In this document: one piece after another, positions 1 to 50,587 of the stretch
How positions within the stretch are numbered: the stretch's first letter is position 1
How the letters are laid out: each line of letters opens with the position of its first letter
From: Escherichia coli
GTDB taxonomy: Bacteria; Pseudomonadota; Gammaproteobacteria; Enterobacterales; Enterobacteriaceae
Length of the DNA stretch: 64,000 bases
Assembly (NCBI RefSeq): GCF_016026235.1
Contig: NZ_CP065613.1
Direction: 5' to 3' (one strand)
Position numbers and translations under genes: made by a program
Notes under the pieces: generated by a model
The model's database searches: none
What the model was told of the DNA's origin: nothing
The model's input: only the letters and a program-made list of their open reading frames with translations

Positions 1-38
1 GGCGGGACATTTTCTGTAACAACCACGACCATGCTCAT
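1..38 (-). CDS. cas2: Cas2 (type I-E), 5' fragment only; ATG at 38..36 overlaps the cas1 stop (TGATG); continues beyond the left window edge
   Basis: Minus-strand reading from 38 gives M-S-M-V-V-V-V-T-E-N-V-P, matching the Cas2 N-terminus as I recall it; position immediately downstream of cas1. Confidence 0.5.
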   Translation of the reverse strand, partial: MSMVVVVTENVP

Positions 39-958
39 CAGCCGCGTCCTCGATGACCGCTATCGCCCAGCGTTTCAGGTTCGGGGATGGCTGGCGGTAA
101 CATATCCGGCGCAGGTTGTGGCGGTTCAATTTCACCTGCGGCAAGGACTTCCTCAATTAACGGTATTAATTTGCCCGTTAACTTAGTGCTACGGAAAATA
201 TCACGACAGGCTAATCTGACTTCTTTATCAGGTTCTGCGGGTTGCCTCGCCGCTATTTCAAATGCCTTTGGTACAACCGAATCAAATTTAATGATATCGG
301 CTATGTCATAAACAAATGAAAGCGGTTTGCCACTATGAATAAATCCAATAGCGGGCGCATATCCCGCGGCTAATACTGCCGCTTCAGAAATACCGTACAG
401 ACATGATGTGGCAGCACTGATGCAGCGATTCACAACATCGCCTTTTTCCCAGTCTTTAGGATCGTATTTGCGACCATTCCATTTCACACCATATTGTTTC
501 GCCAGTAATGCATAGGTCTGGCGAACGCGGGATCCCTCAATTCCCCGTAGCTGATCCACTGAACGGCGAGCTGGCGGTGGCTCACGAAAACGTAATTCAT
601 ACATTTTGCGCACCACCTTCAGGCGTAGATCTTCCGTTAAAGCCAGCTTTGCCTGGTAGAGTAATTTATCTGCCCGCGCCCCTCCGGGTTGTCCGGAAGA
701 GTAAACGCGAACGCCCGCTTCACCGACCCAGACCAGCAGTGTTCCCACCGTGGCGGCCAGATGCACCGCCGCGTGGGAAACTCTCGTTCCCGGTTCGAGC
801 ATAATGCAGGCGACCGATCCCACCGGAATGTGCGTGCGGATCCCGGTTTTGTCGATCAGCACGAAAGCGCCGTCCAGTACGTCGATTTGACCGTACTGGA
901 GGAAGATCATAGAGGTGCGATCTTTTAACGGGATCGGACTCAGTGGTACAAACGTCAC
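38..958 (-). CDS. cas1: Cas1 integrase (type I-E), 306 aa, apparently intact
   Basis: ORF-track protein MTFVPLSPIPLKDRTSMIFLQYGQIDVLDGAFVLIDKTGIRTHIPVGSVACIMLEPG... is close to E. coli YgbT/Cas1 (recalled); start overlaps casE stop. Confidence 0.95.
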   Translation of the reverse strand: MTFVPLSPIPLKDRTSMIFLQYGQIDVLDGAFVLIDKTGIRTHIPVGSVACIMLEPGTRVSHAAVHLAATVGTLLVWVGEAGVRVYSSGQPGGARADKLLYQAKLALTEDLRLKVVRKMYELRFREPPPARRSVDQLRGIEGSRVRQTYALLAKQYGVKWNGRKYDPKDWEKGDVVNRCISAATSCLYGISEAAVLAAGYAPAIGFIHSGKPLSFVYDIADIIKFDSVVPKAFEIAARQPAEPDKEVRLACRDIFRSTKLTGKLIPLIEEVLAAGEIEPPQPAPDMLPPAIPEPETLGDSGHRGRG

Positions 959-1605
959 ACCTCTGCTCCGGGTTTGATCAGCATCAGACCACAGCCGAAC
1001 GCGCGGCTTTTGCCATACCCCTGACTGAGACGTTGCAGAAATAACCCGGGATCGGTGACCGTAAGCATCCCCGTATAATCCACGCTACTGAACTGGATCA
1101 GTTGCCAGGAGTTTTCCCGCCGCAGTTGCTGTTGTCGGTAGGCATCAACCGAGGTATCCAGCAGTGTAAAACCGCTTCTCTCCCCCTGCGCTGCCAGCCA
1201 GTCCAGCGCCGCCTGTTGTTGATGCAACCAGACATCACTTCCTTCTGCCTGCCCCCTCATCTGCCGTTTCGCCTCCATCAGCAGATCGTGGCGCTTGCCC
1301 GCTTTACAGATTGTTGGATTCGCCCGCAGGTTGAAACAAAGTTGTTGTCCGGTACGCAGCTCGGGCACAAATGACCGGCATTCGATGGTGAACGTTTCAC
1401 TTTCCGCCGGGCGTTCCTGCGACAGTACAAAAAAGCGAAACGCGCCCTGGAGTTCTTCCCGACGATAAAGAAATTGCCTTTCTTTGCCGCCAGGGAAGAG
1501 ATCCCACAGCCACTGATGCATCACATATTCCCCGCGATCCACCAGATGCAGCAACTGCGCAGGCGAAAGCTGGCCGGTATGTAAGGTTATTCTTGAGAGG
1601 TACAT
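955..1605 (-). CDS. casE: CasE / Cas6e pre-crRNA endoribonuclease, 216 aa, starting MYLSRITL (internal start of the 262-aa track ORF)
   Basis: MYLS start as in K-12 CasE and C-terminal GCGLMLI motif resembling CasE GCGLLSL; AGGAGG-like RBS (rc of ggttcctcc) about 7 nt upstream of ATG at 1605; operon position. Confidence 0.8.
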   Translation of the reverse strand: MYLSRITLHTGQLSPAQLLHLVDRGEYVMHQWLWDLFPGGKERQFLYRREELQGAFRFFVLSQERPAESETFTIECRSFVPELRTGQQLCFNLRANPTICKAGKRHDLLMEAKRQMRGQAEGSDVWLHQQQAALDWLAAQGERSGFTLLDTSVDAYRQQQLRRENSWQLIQFSSVDYTGMLTVTDPGLFLQRLSQGYGKSRAFGCGLMLIKPGAEV

Positions 1606-2333
1606 GGTTCCTCCTTGCTGAGCCACGGCCCCTGATTGACGGTGCGTTCCCCAAACAGCCATTGCTGACGATTTAAAGGAACATCCCGGCGGCGCAATAT
1701 TTTGCTCGCGACCAGGCCGTCGTGCTCCCCTTCCCACCAGCATTCATCCTGAAGTTTCGGGAGTGCGATTTTCAGGTCGTGGAAATGCTCCTGATACTGG
1801 TGATATGCGTTACGTAAAACATCAGACGCGTTGCCTTCGAGCAGTAACGGCGCAAGTGGTAATGCCAGCGGATGACTTTTTCGCCCCAGATAAAGAGGAA
1901 AAACTGGATGGCGTAAACCGCCCTGCAACTGTTCGAGGCTGTAAGGCGCATCGGCTGTTGTTGCCACCGCCACCATCCACCAGGCGTCGGTGTAGTAGTC
2001 GCGCCGGGAGATAATCGCGCTCAGAAGATCAGGGTCGCTCAACTCTTCGCGACGGCTGAAATAACGCGCTTTACGCACCTCTTTTGGCATCTGGATCGTG
2101 TGATAATCCCGTGCCCAGCGCGGGTTACGGCTGGCGCAAACCACCAGTGAATAGTGGCGATTAAACGCGTTTAAGCGTTCGGTATCATCACGCCGAATCC
2201 CTACCCCGGCAGCCAGCAGACCCAGCAATGCTGAGCGCAAAGGCAGTTCATGGGTATGACGCACTTCGCCGGGGGCATCGACGCCCCAGGATGCCATTGG
2301 CCCATGAAGCTGAAAAATCAGATATTGGCTCAT
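1587..2333 (-). CDS. casD: CasD / Cas5e, 248 aa
   Basis: N-terminus MSQYLIFQLHGPMASWG matches the Cas5e motif (K-12 MRSYLILRLAGPMQAWG); overlaps casE by 19 nt. Confidence 0.8.
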   Translation of the reverse strand: MSQYLIFQLHGPMASWGVDAPGEVRHTHELPLRSALLGLLAAGVGIRRDDTERLNAFNRHYSLVVCASRNPRWARDYHTIQMPKEVRKARYFSRREELSDPDLLSAIISRRDYYTDAWWMVAVATTADAPYSLEQLQGGLRHPVFPLYLGRKSHPLALPLAPLLLEGNASDVLRNAYHQYQEHFHDLKIALPKLQDECWWEGEHDGLVASKILRRRDVPLNRQQWLFGERTVNQGPWLSKEEPCTSQE

Positions 2334-2343
2334 AAGCCGCCCC

Positions 2344-3399
2344 TTACGCGCAGATAAAGTCCAGCACGTCCTTCATGCTTCCCTGTTTGTTCATCACGTC
2401 AAAACTTGCGCATTCGGTCTTCTGTTCGTAGACCGTATTCATATTTTCGCGAAGCGTTGTAATACGCTGCACCGCCACGTCTAACTGCCGGGTGCCATTA
2501 ATGGGTTCATAGAAGGCCGCAGCCAGAGAACGCGGTTGATCGGTGCCTTTTTCCGCCAGCGCCCAGGAAGCATAGGCACGGCTGGCAAAGCTATTTTGTT
2601 TACCGGTTGGGGAAACTTTAAGCGCGGCTTCCGTAAAAGCGCGTATGGTCTGATTAGCTAACGCTTCGTCACCGCCGAGGTTTTCTACCAGCAGATCTTT
2701 ATCAATGCAGATATAGGTGTAGAAAAGTGCTGAACCGAATCCGGTTTCTCCGAGATGCCCGGCACCGGCATCTTCAGAGGCCTAGCGCAAATCATCAACG
2801 GCGGTGAAAAAATCATCTTCGACAATCGTTTCACTGACACCAAACGCATGCGCGACCTGGCAGGCGGCTTCAACATTAAACTCAGGTTTATTCGCCAGCA
2901 TACGACCAAACATAGCGATATCTACCGCTATACGGTCTTTACGTAACAACGCGAGATCTTCCTCTTTTGGCGCGCGCTTTTCTTCTGCCAGTTGATGGGC
3001 CAGCGCTTTTACGGCGTCAAATTCTGCCGGGCTGATATGAACTAATTGTTCAGTTTCGGCGTTAGTGAGCGGATCTTTTGGTTTTTTGTCGTTTTTAGCT
3101 TTCCCAAGATAATCCGCAATTTTTGCCGCCCATTCGATGGCTTTTTTCTCTTCGATGCCTTTCTCAATCAGGATAGTTGCCGCCTCACGCGCAATTCGCC
3201 CACTGCGAATACCAATATGGCCCGCCAGTGCCTGTTCAAAAAGTGCAGAAGTGCGCCACGCACGTTTCAGACTTTGTGAGGAAACGCGCAGACGCGTTGC
3301 ACCACCCAGTACCACAGTTTTTGGCGCACCAGTATCATCACGGTTAAGGTTGGCAGCAGGGTAAGCGGTTAACAAATGAAGCTGAATAAATGTTGTCAT
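2344..3399 (-). pseudogene. casC: CasC / Cas7e with an in-frame TAG at 2784..2782 (codon 206 of 351)
   Basis: Track ORF 2782..3399 ends ...FTAVDDLR then TAG; same frame continues ASEDAGAGHLGETGFGSALFYTYICIDKDLLVENLGG... to TAA at 2346..2344; both halves align to one Cas7e (K-12 ...FTAVDDLQEQGSAHLG...NLAQLQENLGG). Confidence 0.85.
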
Positions 3400-3413
3400 G
3401 AGATAGTCCTTTA

Positions 3414-3950
3414 TTAATTTTGTTCGTTATCGGCGTCGCCAGCCTGGTAATATTCCAGTGCCCAGCGGATACGGATAAATTCGGTTGGCCGCTGCTGGCG
3501 GCGGTGATGATTGAGCAGGTCGTCGCTCTCCTGGCACCAGCGGAAAATATCTTCTGCCAAAGAGATAAGATTGACGGAACCGTTTAATAATTTGACCGCG
3601 CGACGTAACTGACGCAGTAAATCATCCGGCGTTTTTACTGCCGACAGGCGAGTAAAACGCCCCTCCGACATTACCGCCGCCAGCTGCGCGGCAAAAGGCT
3701 GCCGTTCATCAATGGCTTTTACATTGGCGCTAACTGCGGCGACCAGCGCCAGTGCGGTAAAACGCCACTCTTGTGCTTCAATTTTCCACAAAGTGTGGGT
3801 CTGCATCAGCAGAGAACGAAACCCTTCTGACAAGCAAACATCATTAACCGTTGTGCTACGCCGCAGACTGGCACGATTGCCGCGTTTAGCCTGCAACTCT
3901 TCGTGCCATTTACGCAGCGTGGCTTTGTGCTCCTCTTTTACAATACTCAT
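3414..3950 (-). CDS. casB: CasB / Cse2 small Cascade subunit, 178 aa
   Basis: Size and position between casA and casC in a I-E operon; sequence diverged from K-12 CasB so the call rests mainly on synteny. Confidence 0.7.
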   Translation of the reverse strand: MSIVKEEHKATLRKWHEELQAKRGNRASLRRSTTVNDVCLSEGFRSLLMQTHTLWKIEAQEWRFTALALVAAVSANVKAIDERQPFAAQLAAVMSEGRFTRLSAVKTPDDLLRQLRRAVKLLNGSVNLISLAEDIFRWCQESDDLLNHHRRQQRPTEFIRIRWALEYYQAGDADNEQN

Positions 3951-5509
3951 TCAGCAGCCTCCTGCTTTTTCTCCCTGGCGGCGTTAGCATTTTGCTTCTC
4001 CGCTGATGTTGTAAAATATTTCTTGCGTGCGGTCATGACGCGTTCCAAATCAACGGGCTCATATGGATTGGTAAAGACACGATCGTCAAAATCCTGACGC
4101 GCGAATAACCACATTTCCTTTTGCCATTTACTGAGTAATTCGTCCGGATCCTGACCTTCTTCAATTTTGCGCACTAATCTCAGGAATCGATGCTGAGTTT
4201 TGTTCCAGAAGTCGATATCCACAAAACTAAAATCACCCCTTGCACCTTTTGGATCGGAGAACCATGCTTCTTTCAATGCACTCCGTAACAGACTTAGAAT
4301 CCGTGAAGCTGTTTGCGCAGCCAGCCGCAGCTTCGGTATCTGACCTTCTTTTTTATCGAGCAGCAGCGGGAAATGGTGTTCGTACCAACAGCGCGCTTTC
4401 ATGTTGTCGAAATCATAGCCAAATCCCCACAGGCCCACTTTTGCCTGCTTGAGACTGCTGGCATTGAAGAGTTTCACCACCAGCGCGGGAAGTTCCGTAT
4501 TGTTTTCTGATTTACCCGTTTCGATAAGGCCTAACCAGTCACGCCAGATTAAACCGCCCGGTTGTGGTTTAACGGAGTAAAACTCGCCACCCTCTTTAAG
4601 TGGTACACGGTAAGGCGTTAAGGGATGCTGCCACATGGCATAATTCGCACCGTAATTTTTGGTCGTCATCAGGCTCAGGAGCGCGTCGCTCTGCTCACCG
4701 CAAATATCGCAGTTGCCGACTGTCGTGGTATTAAAATCAATACGAATACGGCGAGGCATTCCCCAGTACGCCTGGAGTTTATTGACCTGCTCATCGGTTA
4801 CCACCGCACCGGCCAGTTCGCTGGTGCGCGTCGGGCCAAGCCAGGGGAAAACCAGATCGTCAAATTTTTTGGGTAGCGGTAAATCGGCTTCATCCTGCGG
4901 CATGACATTGATCCACAGTTTGCGCCACAAGGGAGTTTGTTGATTACCCTGATATTCCTGTAATTCAATCAGAGTGGTCATCGGCCCACCGCCGCGTAAA
5001 CCGGTGCGGTAGCCTTTGCCACCTGACGGCGCATTCAACTGTAGGGAGAACAGAGCTAACGCAGAACAATGTGGGCACAGGTATTCCGTTACACCACGCT
5101 TGATAAAGTGGTCTTTATTAAACTTCGTTGTTTGAGCGCCGGGAATCTCAGGCAGTAGCGAAGCGACCGGAACTTTATCTCCGGTGAGCGCCTCGAAATC
5201 CTGCATAAATGAAGGGGAATCTGGCCCAAACTGGAAAGCATGTTCTAATGACAGCAATGCTTCCCGTAGCTTTTCAGCTTCCAGTCCGTCTTCCCAGATA
5301 TCATCCCAACGACGATGATCTTTTGGCGCGAAGCTGGTTTGTAGTAGCCCCAGCAAAAACTGCCATACCGCACCCTGGAGATCTGCCCGCGGCGCAGAAA
5401 TATCGACAACATTTTCATCCGCCAGATCGACTGGCGCCAGTTTGCCTGTCGTTCCGTCTTTAAAACGAACGGGCAACCACGGGGTTGTCAGAAGTGAAAA
5501 CGAGTTCAT
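3947..5509 (-). CDS. casA: CasA / Cse1 (Cas8e) large Cascade subunit, about 520 aa; start taken at MNSFSLL (ATG 5509..5507) rather than the track start at 5578
   Basis: N-terminus MNSFSLLTTPWLPVR parallels K-12 CasA MNLLIDNWIPVR; GAGAGG RBS-like motif 6 nt upstream; alternative start MRMNSF at 5515. Confidence 0.8.
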   Translation of the reverse strand: MNSFSLLTTPWLPVRFKDGTTGKLAPVDLADENVVDISAPRADLQGAVWQFLLGLLQTSFAPKDHRRWDDIWEDGLEAEKLREALLSLEHAFQFGPDSPSFMQDFEALTGDKVPVASLLPEIPGAQTTKFNKDHFIKRGVTEYLCPHCSALALFSLQLNAPSGGKGYRTGLRGGGPMTTLIELQEYQGNQQTPLWRKLWINVMPQDEADLPLPKKFDDLVFPWLGPTRTSELAGAVVTDEQVNKLQAYWGMPRRIRIDFNTTTVGNCDICGEQSDALLSLMTTKNYGANYAMWQHPLTPYRVPLKEGGEFYSVKPQPGGLIWRDWLGLIETGKSENNTELPALVVKLFNASSLKQAKVGLWGFGYDFDNMKARCWYEHHFPLLLDKKEGQIPKLRLAAQTASRILSLLRSALKEAWFSDPKGARGDFSFVDIDFWNKTQHRFLRLVRKIEEGQDPDELLSKWQKEMWLFARQDFDDRVFTNPYEPVDLERVMTARKKYFTTSAEKQNANAAREKKQEAAE

Positions 5510-5606: not shown

Positions 5607-8295
5607 TCAACCAACCTTGCCAATCAATCCTTCCGTAGCCGAATACCCGCAACTTTCGTCATCGTTGACTAAAATCACGTTTGCCATCTCCGGATCTTGT
5701 CGCTGTTCAATGCACCACAGCCTGAACGCCTCTCCCTCCAGTAAAGAAAACTCATCCCGATGTTTTTTCCACCAGCTTCGGCGCACTCTGACAACGCTCA
5801 TTTCCCATGCGTGAGCACCGGTGGCATAAGGCTTCACCACACCGTCAATACAGGTAGCCAGCCACAGGGAAACAGACTCCTCAGCCAGACGTGTCGACAG
5901 TTTTTCTGGGAGGTAATCGTTGATATTGGCGGCATAGCCGGGCCTGAAGTTCAGCACAAACTTTTTAGCCATTGCGCGATCACAGTAATATTTGCCCACT
6001 TGCTCCTGCTCGCTGCGGGAAAATCCTTCCGGCATTACCACGTCCTCACCGTAGACGGATTCAATAAGAAGCCGGGCTGCGTGTGGCATCTGAATAGCGC
6101 CTTGCCCACGCAGCACACGCTGCGTCAGCCAGATTCGCCCATGATCGGGGTAGACAAATGCACTGTTACGCATCGCACTGCCAAACCATTCATCACCCGG
6201 AGAGTCGTCCCAGACGGGTGCCAGAATCAGCAATTCAGGAGGGGAACGCTCGTCTTTTCCGTCACGCTTTAACTGACCATTAATATCGCGAATATGCCGC
6301 TGTAATCGCCCCGCTCGCTGGATTAGCAAATCAATGGGGGCCAGGTCGGAGATCATTTCGTCCATATCGCAATCAACGCTCTGCTCCAATACCTGAGTGC
6401 TAATAAGGACTTTTCCGGCACGCTGTGAGCTACCTTCTTTACCAAAGCGTGCCAGCGTTTCCGTTTCAATTCGCTGGCGATCGCTAAAAGCAAAGCGGCT
6501 ATGAAAAAGTGAAAGGCTGGAAGCAGGAATGACGCCGCGGGCAAGCAGCTGACGATAAACCTTAATAGCGTCATCGACAGAATTCCGGATCCAGGCGATG
6601 CATTTCCCCTGACTCACCGCCGATTCGATACGCGCAATACACTCTTGTTCGCTATGAAGCCAACCCACGCTCACGCTACGCTCAACGTCTTTGCGCGTCG
6701 CTACCCGGTGTGAATTCACATTGGATTTCGTAACGTGCGTCAGCCAGGGGTAATCATCCTTTTCAAGGAACGGAGCTTCTTGCTGGCCCTCTGTACCCCG
6801 CGCAAAGGCGGCGACGAGTTTGTCGCGCTGCTGTTGGGATAACGTAGCAGAAAGCAAAATGACGCTGTTTCCACCACGCGCCTGCCGCTCGATCAGCCCT
6901 TCAAGAATGCATGACATGTAAGCGTCACAGGCGTGGATCTCATCAGCCAGCAGGATTTTGTTACTCAGCCCCAGAAGCCGCAGATTATTATGTTTGAACG
7001 GCATCACCGCCATCATCGCCTGATCCAGCGTGCCGACGCCAATTTCAGCCAGTAAAGCCTTCTTGTTACTGTCGGCAAACCAGGCTGCACATCCTTGACT
7101 GAACGCTTGTTCATCCGGTTCTTCTGACCCGACTAAATCACCGGACCAGAGTGATTCATTAAAGCGGTCCATTAATGTACGGGCGCTGTGTGCCAGCACC
7201 AGGCTGGGGCGGGATTCTGGCGAATAGAAAGAAAGCCAGGTTTTGACCAGCCGATCGTACATGGCATCGGCCGTTGCCATTGTTGGCAGGCCAAAGCGCT
7301 TTACCCGCAGCCATCAACCTGTGCGCCAGGATAAGCGCCGCTTCTGTTTTACCTGCGCCAGTCACATCTTCCAGAATAAATAACTGTGGCCCTGGCTGGC
7401 TGATATCCAGATCCAGTACCTTTTGCTGTAATGGTGTCGAGTGCTCAATAAAAGGAAACAGCGTATTAATTCCGGTGAAAGGTGCGGTTTCTGCTTTTGG
7501 AGGAAAGACGGTTAAGGCGTTTTGTGCCTGAACTAAAGTTTTCTGCCAGTAATCTTTAATATTCATTGTCTGTGCGACGCGTGGAAAAAATCGCGTTGAC
7601 GAACCCGTCCAGTCTGCGAGTACGACTGTTGCAGAGATATACCAGGAAAGTTGTTTTAAAAGTTCAACGCCCTCGTCATCATCCCAGAATGTGGGAATCT
7701 CTATGAGCGGAAACAGTGCCTTGATTGCAAGGAGAAAATCTCGCGCGGCAGCTTTGTCTTCAGGCAGAAAATTATCCAGCTCATCAATACGGTCAGGTGG
7801 TCGACCATGATGCCCGGTAGTTATGGACATCCACATCTCTATTACACGTGTAAGTTTACGAGAAGAGAGTGAAGATGAAGGAAGCAACTCCTCACATTCA
7901 CTTAAATAATAATTCCACAGCCAGTAACCCAGCGTTGAATGAGAGATCTTTTCGTAATTCTTTCTGGAACCTTCCGGAATCTTGAGTTCAGGGGCCAGGT
8001 AAAGTTGCTGAAAAGAGCGGGCAAATTTTCCAATATCGTGCCAGCACAGCAACCAGGCGAAAAATTGAGCCGCCTGTTCCTTGTCAGAAATCCCTAATTG
8101 ACGAAAATAATCAGCCAGCCCGAAGCAATTTCTTTTAACCATTAAATAGCCCATCGCGGCTACATCCAGCGAATGCCAGCAAAGAAGGTGATAGTCGTCG
8201 CCCCCGTCTTTCTCGCCGCGTCGGGTTTTTCCCCAGAAATCAAAAAAAGTCACAATATTTTTATCCTTCAGTAAACTTAAAGGATATTTACGCAT
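5607..8295 (-). pseudogene. cas3: Cas3 HD-nuclease/helicase split by a frameshift into two overlapping ORFs (7159..8295 and 5607..7280)
   Basis: N-terminal ORF has HD motif (WHDIGKF) and Walker A (VTGAGKTEAAL); C-terminal ORF has DExH (LLADEIHACD); frames switch between about 7280 and 7316 (LMAAGKA... in one frame, ...FGLPTMATADAM in the other). Confidence 0.85.
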
Positions 8296-8476
8296 ATATT
8301 AAAAATTATCTGTGATATATATCAGCCAATAAAACATTTATATTGTGAATAAATTTATGATTTTCATTTGAAATTCATAATAATAAATAGAGACAATATA
8401 TTCACATAAAAAATATAAATTTAAAAAAGGGTGCAGGAGACCAAACCATCACAATTCAATACGCGGGGTTTTACCC
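8296..8476 (-). promoter_or_regulatory. Very AT-rich region upstream of cas3; probable promoter / nucleoid-protein-bound region
   Basis: About 180 bp of strongly AT-biased sequence directly upstream of the cas3 start; promoter function inferred from position only. Confidence 0.3.
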
Positions 8477-9770
8477 CTGAGGGATCCCCAGAAAATTTAG
8501 TAAACCATTATCATATTGGTATACCGTTGCTGTAGAACTTTCAGCCCTGCGTCAAGTGACAGTGTGTTTAGTATGAGTGGAGAATGTCGAATCACATTCT
8601 CCGCCAGTTTTAATAACGAGATGACTCGCCTGTGCTTCACTGTATTTGCCTGATATTTATGATGTATCCCTTTGTTTTCCAGGCTGAAACCGCTTAACCA
8701 CATAATGATACTGGCTAATGTTGCGATCAGACTCAATACCGTGACCCGCCCGGATGAATGACTGGCACCAAACCGTAGTCCAAATCCCCAGCGAGGATTT
8801 TTTTCATCCCTGAAATTTTGCTCAATTTGCATTCTACGGCTGTATAATTTCATTACCTGTTTTGGCGAGAACTCAGTACTGTTTGTGAAAATAAACCATG
8901 GTGATTTCCCGGCAGTACGAGCTTTAGCCGTCACCGATGGTCTGGTTGCTCTTTCCTTCGAGCGTTTAAATCTACGACCTTTAGGCTTACTTTTATAAAG
9001 ATAAAAATGCCCTTCATGTTGTGCATTTTTATCTCGACCCAGCAGGCCTTCACCTAAATAAATTGCTGTCGTTGATGCTTTTGTGCCTGAGTCCGACACC
9101 TTTTCCCAGCCATTACCAACATTGTAATAATGATTGCCCAGTACCCGGCAAATATAGGTCCAGCCACGGGAGCGGAGCTGTTGGAACCATCGCCCCTGAA
9201 AACCGGCATCTGTAATAACAATGACATCAGTCCCGGGGGAAAAGCACTCAGCAAGCGATTCCAGAAAACGCTCATGTACATCTGCATTCGCTGTCTGTGA
9301 TGATGGAACGACACAACTCATCAACGGTAAAGAACGCCCGTCACATGCCAGGCTTGCCCGCAAAAGCTGAAAACGAGAGGCATGATAAGCACTCCAGTCA
9401 ATGAGTATCACAACACGAGACATTCCCCGCGTAATCTTTTGGGTAATTCGCTGAAAAATGGTGGAAACCTCATTTTGCAAATGTCGATTCCCCAACAGTC
9501 GATCCACCCGCTTTATTTTGTTTTTAACTGATGCCGTACCGGTTAAATGACGCCCGATACTGGTAAGTGTGAGGGAAGCGCCATTTATTACAGCATTAGT
9601 TGCGTCAATCAGTGATTTTTGACGGTAAAGATGCAAAGGGGCCAGTATGTTGTTAAGGAAATTTTGGCATAATGAACGTGCAGGCATAGTGGTGATCTCC
9701 TTGAAATTGTTAGCACAATCAATTAGATCACATCTCACTATGCCTGTCTTGTTTTCTGGGGATTCCTCAG
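8477..9770 (-). mobile_element. IS4-family, IS10-like insertion sequence (about 1.29 kb); boundaries approximate
   Basis: Imperfect terminal inverted repeats CTGAGGGATCCCC (8477..) and GGGGATTCCTCAG (..9770) resemble IS10 ends; encloses an IS10-like transposase; the 9-bp flanks do not match (no target-site duplication). Confidence 0.75.
8497..9687 (-). CDS. IS10-like DDE transposase, 396 aa (start at MPARSL, inside the IS)
   Basis: Segments ...KIKRVDRLLGNRHL... and ...YSRRMQIEQNFRDEKNP...KYQANTV... closely parallel the IS10 transposase (KRIDRLLGNRHL, YSKRMQIEETFRDLKSP, HFQANTV). Confidence 0.85.
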   Translation of the reverse strand: MPARSLCQNFLNNILAPLHLYRQKSLIDATNAVINGASLTLTSIGRHLTGTASVKNKIKRVDRLLGNRHLQNEVSTIFQRITQKITRGMSRVVILIDWSAYHASRFQLLRASLACDGRSLPLMSCVVPSSQTANADVHERFLESLAECFSPGTDVIVITDAGFQGRWFQQLRSRGWTYICRVLGNHYYNVGNGWEKVSDSGTKASTTAIYLGEGLLGRDKNAQHEGHFYLYKSKPKGRRFKRSKERATRPSVTAKARTAGKSPWFIFTNSTEFSPKQVMKLYSRRMQIEQNFRDEKNPRWGFGLRFGASHSSGRVTVLSLIATLASIIMWLSGFSLENKGIHHKYQANTVKHRRVISLLKLAENVIRHSPLILNTLSLDAGLKVLQQRYTNMIMVY

Positions 9771-9990
9771 GGGCGATCCTCCAGTTCAAATATAAGGTCA
9801 GAACCTGCATGGTTTATATCAGACATCCCTTCACTCCTTTTAAAGTAAATTTGATCATCTGAATTAGTAAAATAAATTCCCACGAATTTGGGGCGCAGGA
9901 CGCCTTGAGAACGGCTTATCTCATTTTCGCAGTCACTATTTAGTCATCGTTCAAACAGAGAAACAGGCCGCCGAAGCGGCCATTTATTAT

Positions 9991-49161: not shown

Positions 49162-50587
49162 TAATGCCAGTCAGTTAAGCAACTGACTGGCTCTTTTTCG
49201 GGGCTGTGGGGTATTTCCAGGGCCTCTCCTTTACCACTCTCGGGAAGGCCCTTCCCCTTCTCGTCGGTAATTTCACAAGTTGTCCCATACTTGCAAGATC
49301 GCGCATCAGCTCCGGTATACGTCCCGGTGAAGCGCCCTGCAATGTCATCAGCATTCTCATCACCATTCCGCATGATTCTGAGAAACTCAGTTGATTCGGC
49401 CAGTAACCTTTCAGATGTTCCGCCATTTTAATCATCTGATATCTCACCAGATTATAAGCCAGTAAGACACCCCACAGCTCTTGCTCCACAAGCTCCGGCT
49501 TTTTACTTCTCAGCGTCAGCCTGCTCAGTTGCATCGTCTGTTTTATCTCCCTGTATCCCAGTTCGATTTCCCAGCGATGACTGTACAGATCCGCCATTTC
49601 TCCTCCGGGGAAGCGCATGGCGTCCGTCATCGACGTCAGCAGATGGCAGACTTTTCCTTTGCGCGTCACGGTCAGCAGGCGGGCTGTCACTTCATTTCCC
49701 AGTCCCGGCCACTTTTTTCGTGCCTGCGGGCTGGTTTTCAGCTTCACCAGATGATCGCCTTTACCCAGTTTTCTGAGCTCTTCATATTGCGCTCCCTTTC
49801 TGAGAGGTATCATCCAGTGGCGGTGTTCTCCCGCCAGGCTCCAGGCATTTAACAGTCCCAGTGAGTAATAACCTTTATCCATTAACGTCAGAGTGTTATC
49901 GCCGGTTTGTTCTATAAGTTGCTCAGCAAGCTCATTTTCGCTGTTCTTCATCGTGCCGAAGGCTGCAGCCGTCAGCAGATGGCTGGTCAGTTCCATCTGG
50001 CAGACCATTTTGACCTGCGGGTAGAGCGCCGGGTTCCCGGCATGTGTCTGGCGGGGGAAGGCTGCATCGTTCTCTGGTGTATCCGGTGTGCGCCAGAACA
50101 CACCATCGATGGCCAGCAGGGTCAGGCCGCACCAGTGCGGATGCGGCGTGGCGTTATGCCAGAGCTGCGCTGTTTTCGTGAACACGCGGCGGACAGCCTC
50201 ACTTCCCAGGCGCTGGCGGGCCTGAATAACGGCACTGGGGGCAACGAAGGGGCGATTGCCCGGCAGCATGATGTCCAGGCGATTCACAATCTGGTGAAGA
50301 GGTTCTTTACGCTCAAGCGCCATGCCAACAATACACCAGACCATCATTTCGAGGGGAAGACGGCGCTTGCGTAGCGTTACAGTACCTGATTCGGCAAGGC
50401 AACGAGAGATGAGTTCGGGGTCGAGGTAATCCCCCAGAGAAGTCAGTGGGTTACGCAGAGAATCGTAACGGGATACCAGATCAAGAGCCTGTCCAATGTG
50501 CATAAAAAAATCCGGAAACAAGTGAGCGTTTCCGGATTCTTACACAGCCACTGGATCGGTCAACTGATCCTTAACTGATCGGCATTA
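49162..50587 (-). mobile_element. IS4 (1426 bp)
   Basis: Terminal inverted repeats TAATGCCAGTCAGTTAAG (left) and CTTAACTGATCGGCATTA (right); encodes the IS4 transposase; flanked by a 13-bp direct repeat. Confidence 0.9.
49175..50503 (-). CDS. insG: IS4 transposase InsG, 442 aa (start [10 protein letters not shown])
   Basis: Sequence recognised as IS4 InsG. Confidence 0.9.

What the first reader, a model, noticed from the sequence alone, without database searches (positions are those of the whole stretch)
5607..8295. cas3 is split by a frameshift between the HD-nuclease and helicase halves
The HD and Walker A motifs lie in ORF 7159..8295, and the DExH motif with the rest of the helicase lies in ORF 5607..7280, in a different frame with a 122-nt overlap. 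Conceptually removing one nucleotide near 7296 joins ...LMAAGKA to FGLPTMATADAM..., giving a continuous Cas3-like protein of about 890 aa. Together with the casC nonsense codon, the interference module appears inactivated at two independent points.
Basis: partly seen in the sequence, partly recalled or inferred. Interest (0 to 1): 0.55.

Follow-up and report, generated by a model that had tools for sequence, protein, structure and literature searches.

The report
cas3 pseudogene from an 11-base deletion
The cas3 gene of this E. coli type I-E CRISPR locus is broken by a real, inherited 11-base deletion inside the helicase core, in a locus whose casC gene was already knocked out, so this is ordinary decay of a disused immune system.

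Summary
Two minus-strand ORFs, 7159..8295 and 5607..7280, overlap by 122 nt. They carry contiguous parts of one type I-E Cas3: HD domain plus Walker A in the first, motif Ia, DEIH, RecA2 and the C-terminal domain in the second.

The lesion is an 11-nt deletion (AGGGTTTGTTT) between window 7296 and 7295, not a one-base insertion. It removes part of Q334 plus G335-L336-F337, between helicase motifs I and Ia. Restoring the 11 nt gives a clean 899-aa ORF whose exact sequence exists in public E. coli (WP_096854470.1).

Sister genomes 99.8% identical over 8.5-9.8 kb still carry the 11 nt. At least five independent assemblies carry the identical deletion, so it is not an assembly error.

The casC amber codon (CAG to TAG, 2782..2784) is also real. 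It is present in the cas3-intact sisters, so casC was lost first and cas3 decayed afterwards.

The break lies inside RecA1, not at the natural Cas3''/Cas3' boundary, so the pieces cannot mimic a natural split Cas3. An ISEc60 element and an IS-mediated inversion lie just upstream.

Verdict: an ordinary, recent, lineage-specific pseudogene of low interest.

The parts
5607..8295 (-). cas3 pseudogene (type I-E, cas-E1 variant). It spans 2689 nt, against 2700 nt in intact alleles.
   Evidence: 96% identical to intact E. coli cas3 with a single 11-nt gap. The cas3E1-R primer of PMC3903273 matches 8195..8214 exactly.
7297..8295 (-). Native Cas3 residues 1-333. Includes the HD domain (7585..8235) and Walker A GAGKT (7345..7359).
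7295..7296 (-). Deletion junction. Eleven bases (AGGGTTTGTTT on the coding strand) are missing between these two positions. They encoded part of Q334 plus G335, L336 and F337.
   Evidence: Alignments to D8, strain 319, L008 and the 99.8%-identical sister L010.
7159..7296 (-). Out-of-frame tail of the N-terminal fragment: 45 unrelated codons (LWPANNGNG...INGPL) followed by TAA.
5607..7295 (-). Native Cas3 residues 338-899, now in the +1 frame. Contains motif Ia (FGLPTMAT, from 7295), DEIH (6933..6944), the RecA2/Cas3-like_C_2 domain (6291..6611) and the C-terminal domain.
2344..3399 (-). casC/cas7e with a premature amber codon at 2782..2784 (Q206*, CAG to TAG).
38..5509 (-). The rest of the cas operon, all full length versus strain D8: casA 3947..5509, casB 3414..3950, cas5e 1587..2333, cas6e 955..1605, cas1 38..958.
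8474..9773 (-). ISEc60 (IS4 family) about 180 nt upstream of cas3. Its far side joins xdhD instead of hok-cysH.

Best explanation
cas3 here is a recent, lineage-specific pseudogene. An 11-nt deletion inside the RecA1 helicase domain shifts the reading frame after residue 333. The N-terminal product (HD domain plus Walker A plus 45 junk residues) lacks motifs Ia-VI and the C-terminal domain. Any C-terminal product lacks the HD domain and motif I, so neither can unwind or degrade Cascade-bound targets. The deletion arose in a background where Cascade was already dead (casC Q206*), so cas3 had no function left to select for. This is neutral decay of an interference module. The adaptation genes cas1 and cas2 and a short CRISPR array remain intact. 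Shown: the lesion, its position, its presence in independent assemblies, the intact precursor, and the order of events. Inferred: loss of function of the protein fragments, and neutrality.
For: The only indel across the whole cas operon versus an intact reference is the 11-nt gap in cas3. Re-inserting the 11 nt gives an 899-aa ORF with one terminal stop. That exact sequence is a real protein, P0136 = WP_096854470.1 / EHD3420448.1, found on 5 contigs. Sister genomes GCA_901482675.2 (L010) and GCA_002461615.1 (L009) are 99.8% identical over 8.5-9.8 kb. L010 reads GCGC-AGGGTTTGTTT-TTTGG at the site, and both already carry the casC amber codon. The deletion-bearing 378-aa fragment is on about 20 contigs. 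Of the loci fetched, four from four assemblies or sequencing runs are 100% identical to the window and L006 (ERR9828666) differs by one base; all five carry the deletion. The deleted residues align to SGCY in the T. terrenum Cas3 structure 4q2c, just before motif Ia. G335 is invariant in 28 homologues of 54-95% identity. In the AlphaFold model, residues 335-339 form a beta-strand between the Walker A helix and motif Ia. Synonymous and non-synonymous counts versus intact alleles look like intact-versus-intact comparisons, which fits a recent lesion.
Against: No expression or activity data are available. The N-terminal fragment keeps a complete HD domain and could retain some nuclease activity in isolation. 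A CUU_U sequence at the junction could in principle allow rare +1 slippage.
Confidence: 0.95

Rival explanations
1. The frameshift is a sequencing or assembly artefact and the real gene is intact.
For: The ancestral sequence is T-rich at the site (GGGTTTGTTTTTTGG), which is where indel errors can occur.
Against: The difference is 11 nt, not a homopolymer length error. The junction GCGC|TTTGG has only a T3 run. The five fetched loci, from five assemblies or sequencing runs including two Logan read assemblies, all carry the same deletion; four are 100% identical to the window and one differs by a single base. Other assemblies of the sister clade consistently show the 11 nt.
Confidence: 0.01
2. 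It is a functional two-gene arrangement, like the natural Cas3'' (HD) plus Cas3' (helicase) split found in some type I systems.
For: One ORF carries the HD domain and the other carries most of the helicase. GenBank annotates them as two CDS, STM06206.1 and STM06207.1.
Against: The break lies inside RecA1, separating motif I from motifs Ia and II, not at the HD/helicase boundary near residue 240-290. Three core beta-strand residues including invariant G335 are lost. No Shine-Dalgarno-like sequence precedes either candidate restart codon, 7280 or 7172. Relatives 99.8% identical have the fused 899-aa gene. Cascade is dead anyway because of casC Q206*.
Confidence: 0.02
3. Programmed or leaky +1 ribosomal frameshifting at GCG CUU UGG (CUU to UUU slip, as at the prfB site) restores some near-full-length Cas3 lacking 4 residues.
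For: The deletion happens to create CUU_U exactly at the junction, and a +1 shift there enters the correct frame. A weak G-rich stretch (GCGGGU) lies upstream.
Against: By established knowledge of prfB-type sites, the A-site codon should be a stop or a starved codon. Here it is UGG (Trp). The G-rich stretch is 6-7 nt from CUU rather than the roughly 3 nt needed to stimulate +1 shifting. The site is not conserved, because it exists only as a by-product of the deletion. The product would still lack most of a core beta-strand including invariant G335.
Confidence: 0.02

Closest known systems
Intact E. coli type I-E Cas3, cas-E1 variant (for example WP_096854470.1; O157:H7-type Cas3 WP_001233978.1)
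   Same: Same gene, same locus next to casABCDE-cas1-cas2. Identical at every residue to WP_096854470.1 once the 11 nt are restored, and about 96% DNA identity to O157-type alleles.
   Different: Eleven nt are missing in RecA1, so no full-length product can be made.
Degraded cas loci of E. coli and Shigella (for example the partially deleted cas3 of S. flexneri 2a 301 noted in PMC3903273)
   Same: Loss of interference genes in IS-rich lineages of the species. Chimeric Cas3-Cas1, Cas3-Cas7 and Cas3-CasA proteins in the database point to frequent internal deletions.
   Different: Here the damage is minimal, one small deletion and one nonsense codon, rather than large deletions or IS insertions within the genes.
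Natural split Cas3'' (HD) plus Cas3' (helicase) of some type I-A/I-B systems
   Same: Superficially an HD-bearing ORF followed by a helicase-bearing ORF.
   Different: The natural split lies at the domain boundary and each gene is complete. Here the break falls between helicase motifs I and Ia and arose by a recent deletion.

Membership tests
Type I-E Cas3 (HD nuclease fused to SF2 helicase) | N-terminal HD domain | tested here: met
   TIGR01596 cas3_HD E=1.8e-26 on ORF 7159..8295. Pfam Cas3_HD covers residues 21-237 of the intact allele.
Type I-E Cas3 (HD nuclease fused to SF2 helicase) | SF2 helicase motifs I, Ia and II (DExH), plus a RecA2 domain | tested here: met
   GAGKT, FGLPTMAT and DEIH are present. 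cas3_core and Cas3-like_C_2 hits are found. The whole protein aligns to Cas3 structures 4q2c, 4qqw and 6c66.
Type I-E Cas3 (HD nuclease fused to SF2 helicase) | Located beside the type I-E Cascade genes and cas1-cas2 | tested here: met
   casA, casB, casC, cas5e, cas6e and cas1 lie directly downstream. cas2 and the CRISPR array are seen in L003.
Type I-E Cas3 (HD nuclease fused to SF2 helicase) | One uninterrupted reading frame encoding all domains (needed to be a functional member) | tested here: not met
   An 11-nt deletion splits the frame after residue 333. By descent it is a cas3 gene, but it is a pseudogene.
Natural split Cas3''/Cas3' | Break at the HD/helicase domain boundary, leaving a complete RecA1 in the helicase gene | tested here: not met
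   The break is between motif I and motif Ia, inside RecA1.
Natural split Cas3''/Cas3' | The split architecture is conserved among close relatives | tested here: not met
   Relatives 99.8% identical have the fused 899-aa gene.
prfB-type programmed +1 frameshift site | CUU_U slippery P-site codon with a stop or slow A-site codon and a Shine-Dalgarno-like element about 3 nt upstream | tested here: not met
   CUU_U is present, but the A-site codon is UGG and the G-rich element is 6-7 nt upstream. The site criteria come from established knowledge of prfB.
prfB-type programmed +1 frameshift site | Measured frameshifting efficiency | not testable with these tools
   This needs a reporter assay.

The most novel reading that the evidence does not exclude
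The 378-aa N-terminal fragment, with a complete HD domain and Walker A, persists as a stand-alone Cas3''-like nuclease with some Cascade-independent role. Alternatively, rare +1 slippage at the newly created CUU_U yields a trace of Cas3 lacking 4 residues. Either way the locus would not be entirely dead.
Probability: 0.03. Interest if true: 0.3.

Novelty: already known. Interest (0 to 1): 0.08.

Why it matters
It matters little beyond correct annotation. The two ORFs should be annotated as one frameshifted cas3 pseudogene, and the strain should be scored as interference-deficient. The modest value lies in a cleanly resolved order of decay within one clade. First came the casC nonsense codon, then the cas3 deletion, with an ISEc60 insertion and an IS-mediated inversion at the cas3 border. 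This fits the long-standing view that type I-E CRISPR-Cas in E. coli is often not maintained for immunity.

Tried and rejected
1. Direct repeats or microhomology that could explain the deletion. None flank it and its placement is unique. A TTTG/TTTG repeat in the ancestor would predict a 7-nt loss, not an 11-nt loss.
2. A complex mutational event, suggested by three SNPs just 5' of the deletion relative to D8. Rejected because intact alleles with the same AAGKA codons exist (P0016, L010), so these SNPs are ordinary allelic variation.
3. Signs of long-term decay. Synonymous and non-synonymous counts in cas3 match intact-versus-intact comparisons, and there are no further stops or indels.
4. Shine-Dalgarno sequences or promoters that could drive the C-terminal ORF. 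No Shine-Dalgarno-like sequence was found, and no promoter-like site lies upstream of it on the coding strand; the scan as a whole gave 5 promoter-like matches against 2.6 expected.
5. A copy of this allele among 5,426 complete RefSeq E. coli genomes. None exceeds 96.1% identity. The relatives were found only in draft and Logan assemblies.
6. Overlapping ORF pairs elsewhere in the window (38349/39650, 48024/49175, 57924/58145), checked as possible further frameshifts. They are merely over-extended ORFs of araE/ygeA, tas/IS4 and ppd genes.
7. A literature search for this specific lesion found nothing specific.

Full report
**Observation.** The window holds two minus-strand ORFs, 7159..8295 (378 aa) and 5607..7280 (557 aa). 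They overlap by 122 nt in different frames.
- NCBIfam places the first on positions 4-331 of the 878-position Cas3 model, and it also hits the Cas3 HD model.
- NCBIfam places the second on positions 342-747, and it also hits the cas3_core helicase model. The two are therefore adjacent parts of one Cas3.
- Walker A (GAGKT) is at 7345..7359 and DEIH is at 6933..6944.
- The rest of a type I-E operon lies directly downstream on the same strand: casA, casB, casC, cas5e, cas6e and cas1.

**Nature of the lesion.** The region is 90-96% identical to cas3 in 3,254 of 5,426 complete E. coli genomes, where cas3 is one 2,700-nt, 899-aa gene.
- Alignment to two intact alleles shows a single gap. Eleven bases (AGGGTTTGTTT on the coding strand) are missing between window 7296 and 7295.
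- Across the whole operon this is the only indel relative to strain D8. The only premature stop outside cas3 is in casC.
- Re-inserting the 11 nt gives an 899-codon ORF with one terminal stop.
- That exact protein exists in public data as WP_096854470.1 / EHD3420448.1 (E. coli O167), on five contigs.
- Two sister genomes, GCA_901482675.2 and GCA_002461615.1, are 99.8% identical to the window over 8.5-9.8 kb. For GCA_901482675.2 (L010) the differences are five SNPs, a 1-nt indel at the IS end, and these 11 nt; L010 reads GCGC-AGGGTTTGTTT-TTTGG.

The real event was an 11-nt deletion.

Three SNPs just 5' of the gap relative to D8 are ordinary allelic variation, since intact alleles carry them. 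No flanking direct repeat explains the deletion.

**Not an artefact.** The exact 378-aa frameshifted fragment is encoded on about 20 contigs. These include a 4.56-Mb NCTC contig, two independent draft assemblies and two Logan read assemblies. Four of the five fetched loci are 100% identical to the window through the junction, and L006 (ERR9828666) differs by one base. The junction has no homopolymer.

**Where it hits the protein.** Pfam puts the HD domain at residues 21-237. The deletion removes two bases of the Q334 codon plus G335, L336 and F337.
- In the alignment to the Thermobaculum terrenum Cas3 structure 4q2c, this segment (there SGCY) sits between the helix that follows Walker A and motif Ia, FALPTMATSN.
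- G335 is invariant in 28 homologues of 54-95% identity.
- In an AlphaFold model (mean pLDDT 72.5), residues 335-339 form a beta-strand between helix 316-329 and helix 343-360.

The break is therefore inside RecA1, not at the HD/helicase boundary.
- The N-fragment has the HD domain, motif I and 45 junk residues.
- The C-fragment has motifs Ia onward.
- No Shine-Dalgarno-like sequence precedes either candidate restart codon.
- The +1 slip that the new CUU_UGG sequence might allow lacks the stop or slow A-site codon and the close upstream Shine-Dalgarno element of known +1 sites. That judgement rests on established knowledge of prfB. Its product would also still lack most of a core strand.

**Context and order of events.** casC carries CAG to TAG at codon 206 of 351, at 2782..2784.
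- The truncated 205-aa CasC occurs in more places (38 index blocks) than the cas3 fragment.
- It occurs in the cas3-intact sisters L009/L013 and L010.
- It also occurs in two divergent cas haplotypes, L012 and L015 (about 95% identity), which have intact cas3.

By parsimony, casC was inactivated first and the cas3 deletion followed in a sub-lineage. That is what is expected once Cascade cannot assemble and Cas3 has nothing to be recruited to.

Synonymous and non-synonymous counts give no sign of further decay, so the lesion is recent. cas1 and cas2 are intact, and a six-repeat CRISPR array lies just beyond the window start. Naive spacer acquisition could in principle persist; that is an inference.

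**Surroundings.** An ISEc60 element (IS4 family, about 8474..9773) sits about 180 nt upstream of cas3.
- In the sister L010, its far side is hok-cysH, the normal neighbour.
- In the window, its far side is xdhD-ygfM-ssnA-ygfK in inverted orientation.
- A related strain, FDAARGOS_943, has an ISEc60 between xdhD and a truncated xanQ, and 36 matching places for this IS in its chromosome.

The simplest reading is an inversion between two inverted ISEc60 copies. The lineage is IS-rich. O167 is, from my own knowledge, a classical enteroinvasive serogroup, but that link was not tested here.

**Comparison with what is known.** The gene is the cas-E1 variant of E. coli cas3. The diagnostic primer of Almendros et al. 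(PMC3903273) matches 8195..8214 exactly. That paper also documents recombination among cas-E genes, and mentions in its methods a partially deleted cas3 in Shigella flexneri 301. The protein database holds many E. coli Cas3-Cas1, Cas3-Cas7 and Cas3-CasA chimeras, which indicate frequent internal deletions.

A frameshifted cas3 in such a lineage is unremarkable.

**Verdict.** This is an ordinary, recent, inherited pseudogene. Interest is low.

Noticed in passing
window 8474-9990 (also L010 617-1912 and L017): An ISEc60 (IS4 family) lies about 180 nt upstream of cas3. It joins cas3 to xdhD-ygfM-ssnA-ygfK in inverted orientation. A 99.8%-identical sister genome has hok-cysH on the far side of the same IS. 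This looks like an inversion between two inverted ISEc60 copies spanning, from my recollection of the K-12 map rather than any measurement here, roughly 135 kb.
   Followed up: partly
window 2782-2784; L012 and L015: The casC Q206* amber allele is more widespread than the cas3 deletion (38 index blocks). It occurs in at least three cas haplotypes about 95% identical to each other, two of them with intact cas3. Either the nonsense allele is old or it has spread by recombination. L015 is nearly identical to the window from casC to cas1 but diverges in casA, casB and cas3.
   Followed up: partly
window 5607-8295: The cas3 allele is a mosaic. Its 5' third is closest to D8/O157-type alleles, while its 3' end is identical to the P0016/L008 type. 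This fits the recombination among cas-E genes described in PMC3903273.
   Followed up: partly
window 49175-50521: A second, different IS4-family transposase (NF033592 type) lies next to the tas aldo-keto reductase gene, which is further evidence of an IS-rich genome.
   Followed up: no
L003 18648-18990 (just beyond window position 1): A CRISPR array of six type I-E repeats at 61-nt spacing follows an intact cas2. The adaptation module and the array are preserved even though interference is dead.
   Followed up: partly
L017 (FDAARGOS_943, NZ_CP065615.1): A complete E. coli genome with a 99.9% identical xdhD region has 36 places matching the ISEc60 query. Its xanQ is truncated by one copy and its xdhD is split by an IS5. 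No place in it, or in any other complete genome, matches this cas3 allele at 99% or more.
   Followed up: partly
one search hit list (P0058, P0060, P0061, P0081, P0086, P0116-P0119): Many E. coli database proteins combine Cas3 domains with Cas1, CasA, Cas6e or Cas7 domains at about 93% identity. This suggests recurrent in-frame internal deletions of the cas operon across the species.
   Followed up: no
L001 345-639 (E. coli D8): The reference strain used for its intact cas3 has a frameshifted cas2 of its own, another example of piecemeal cas decay in E. coli.
   Followed up: no
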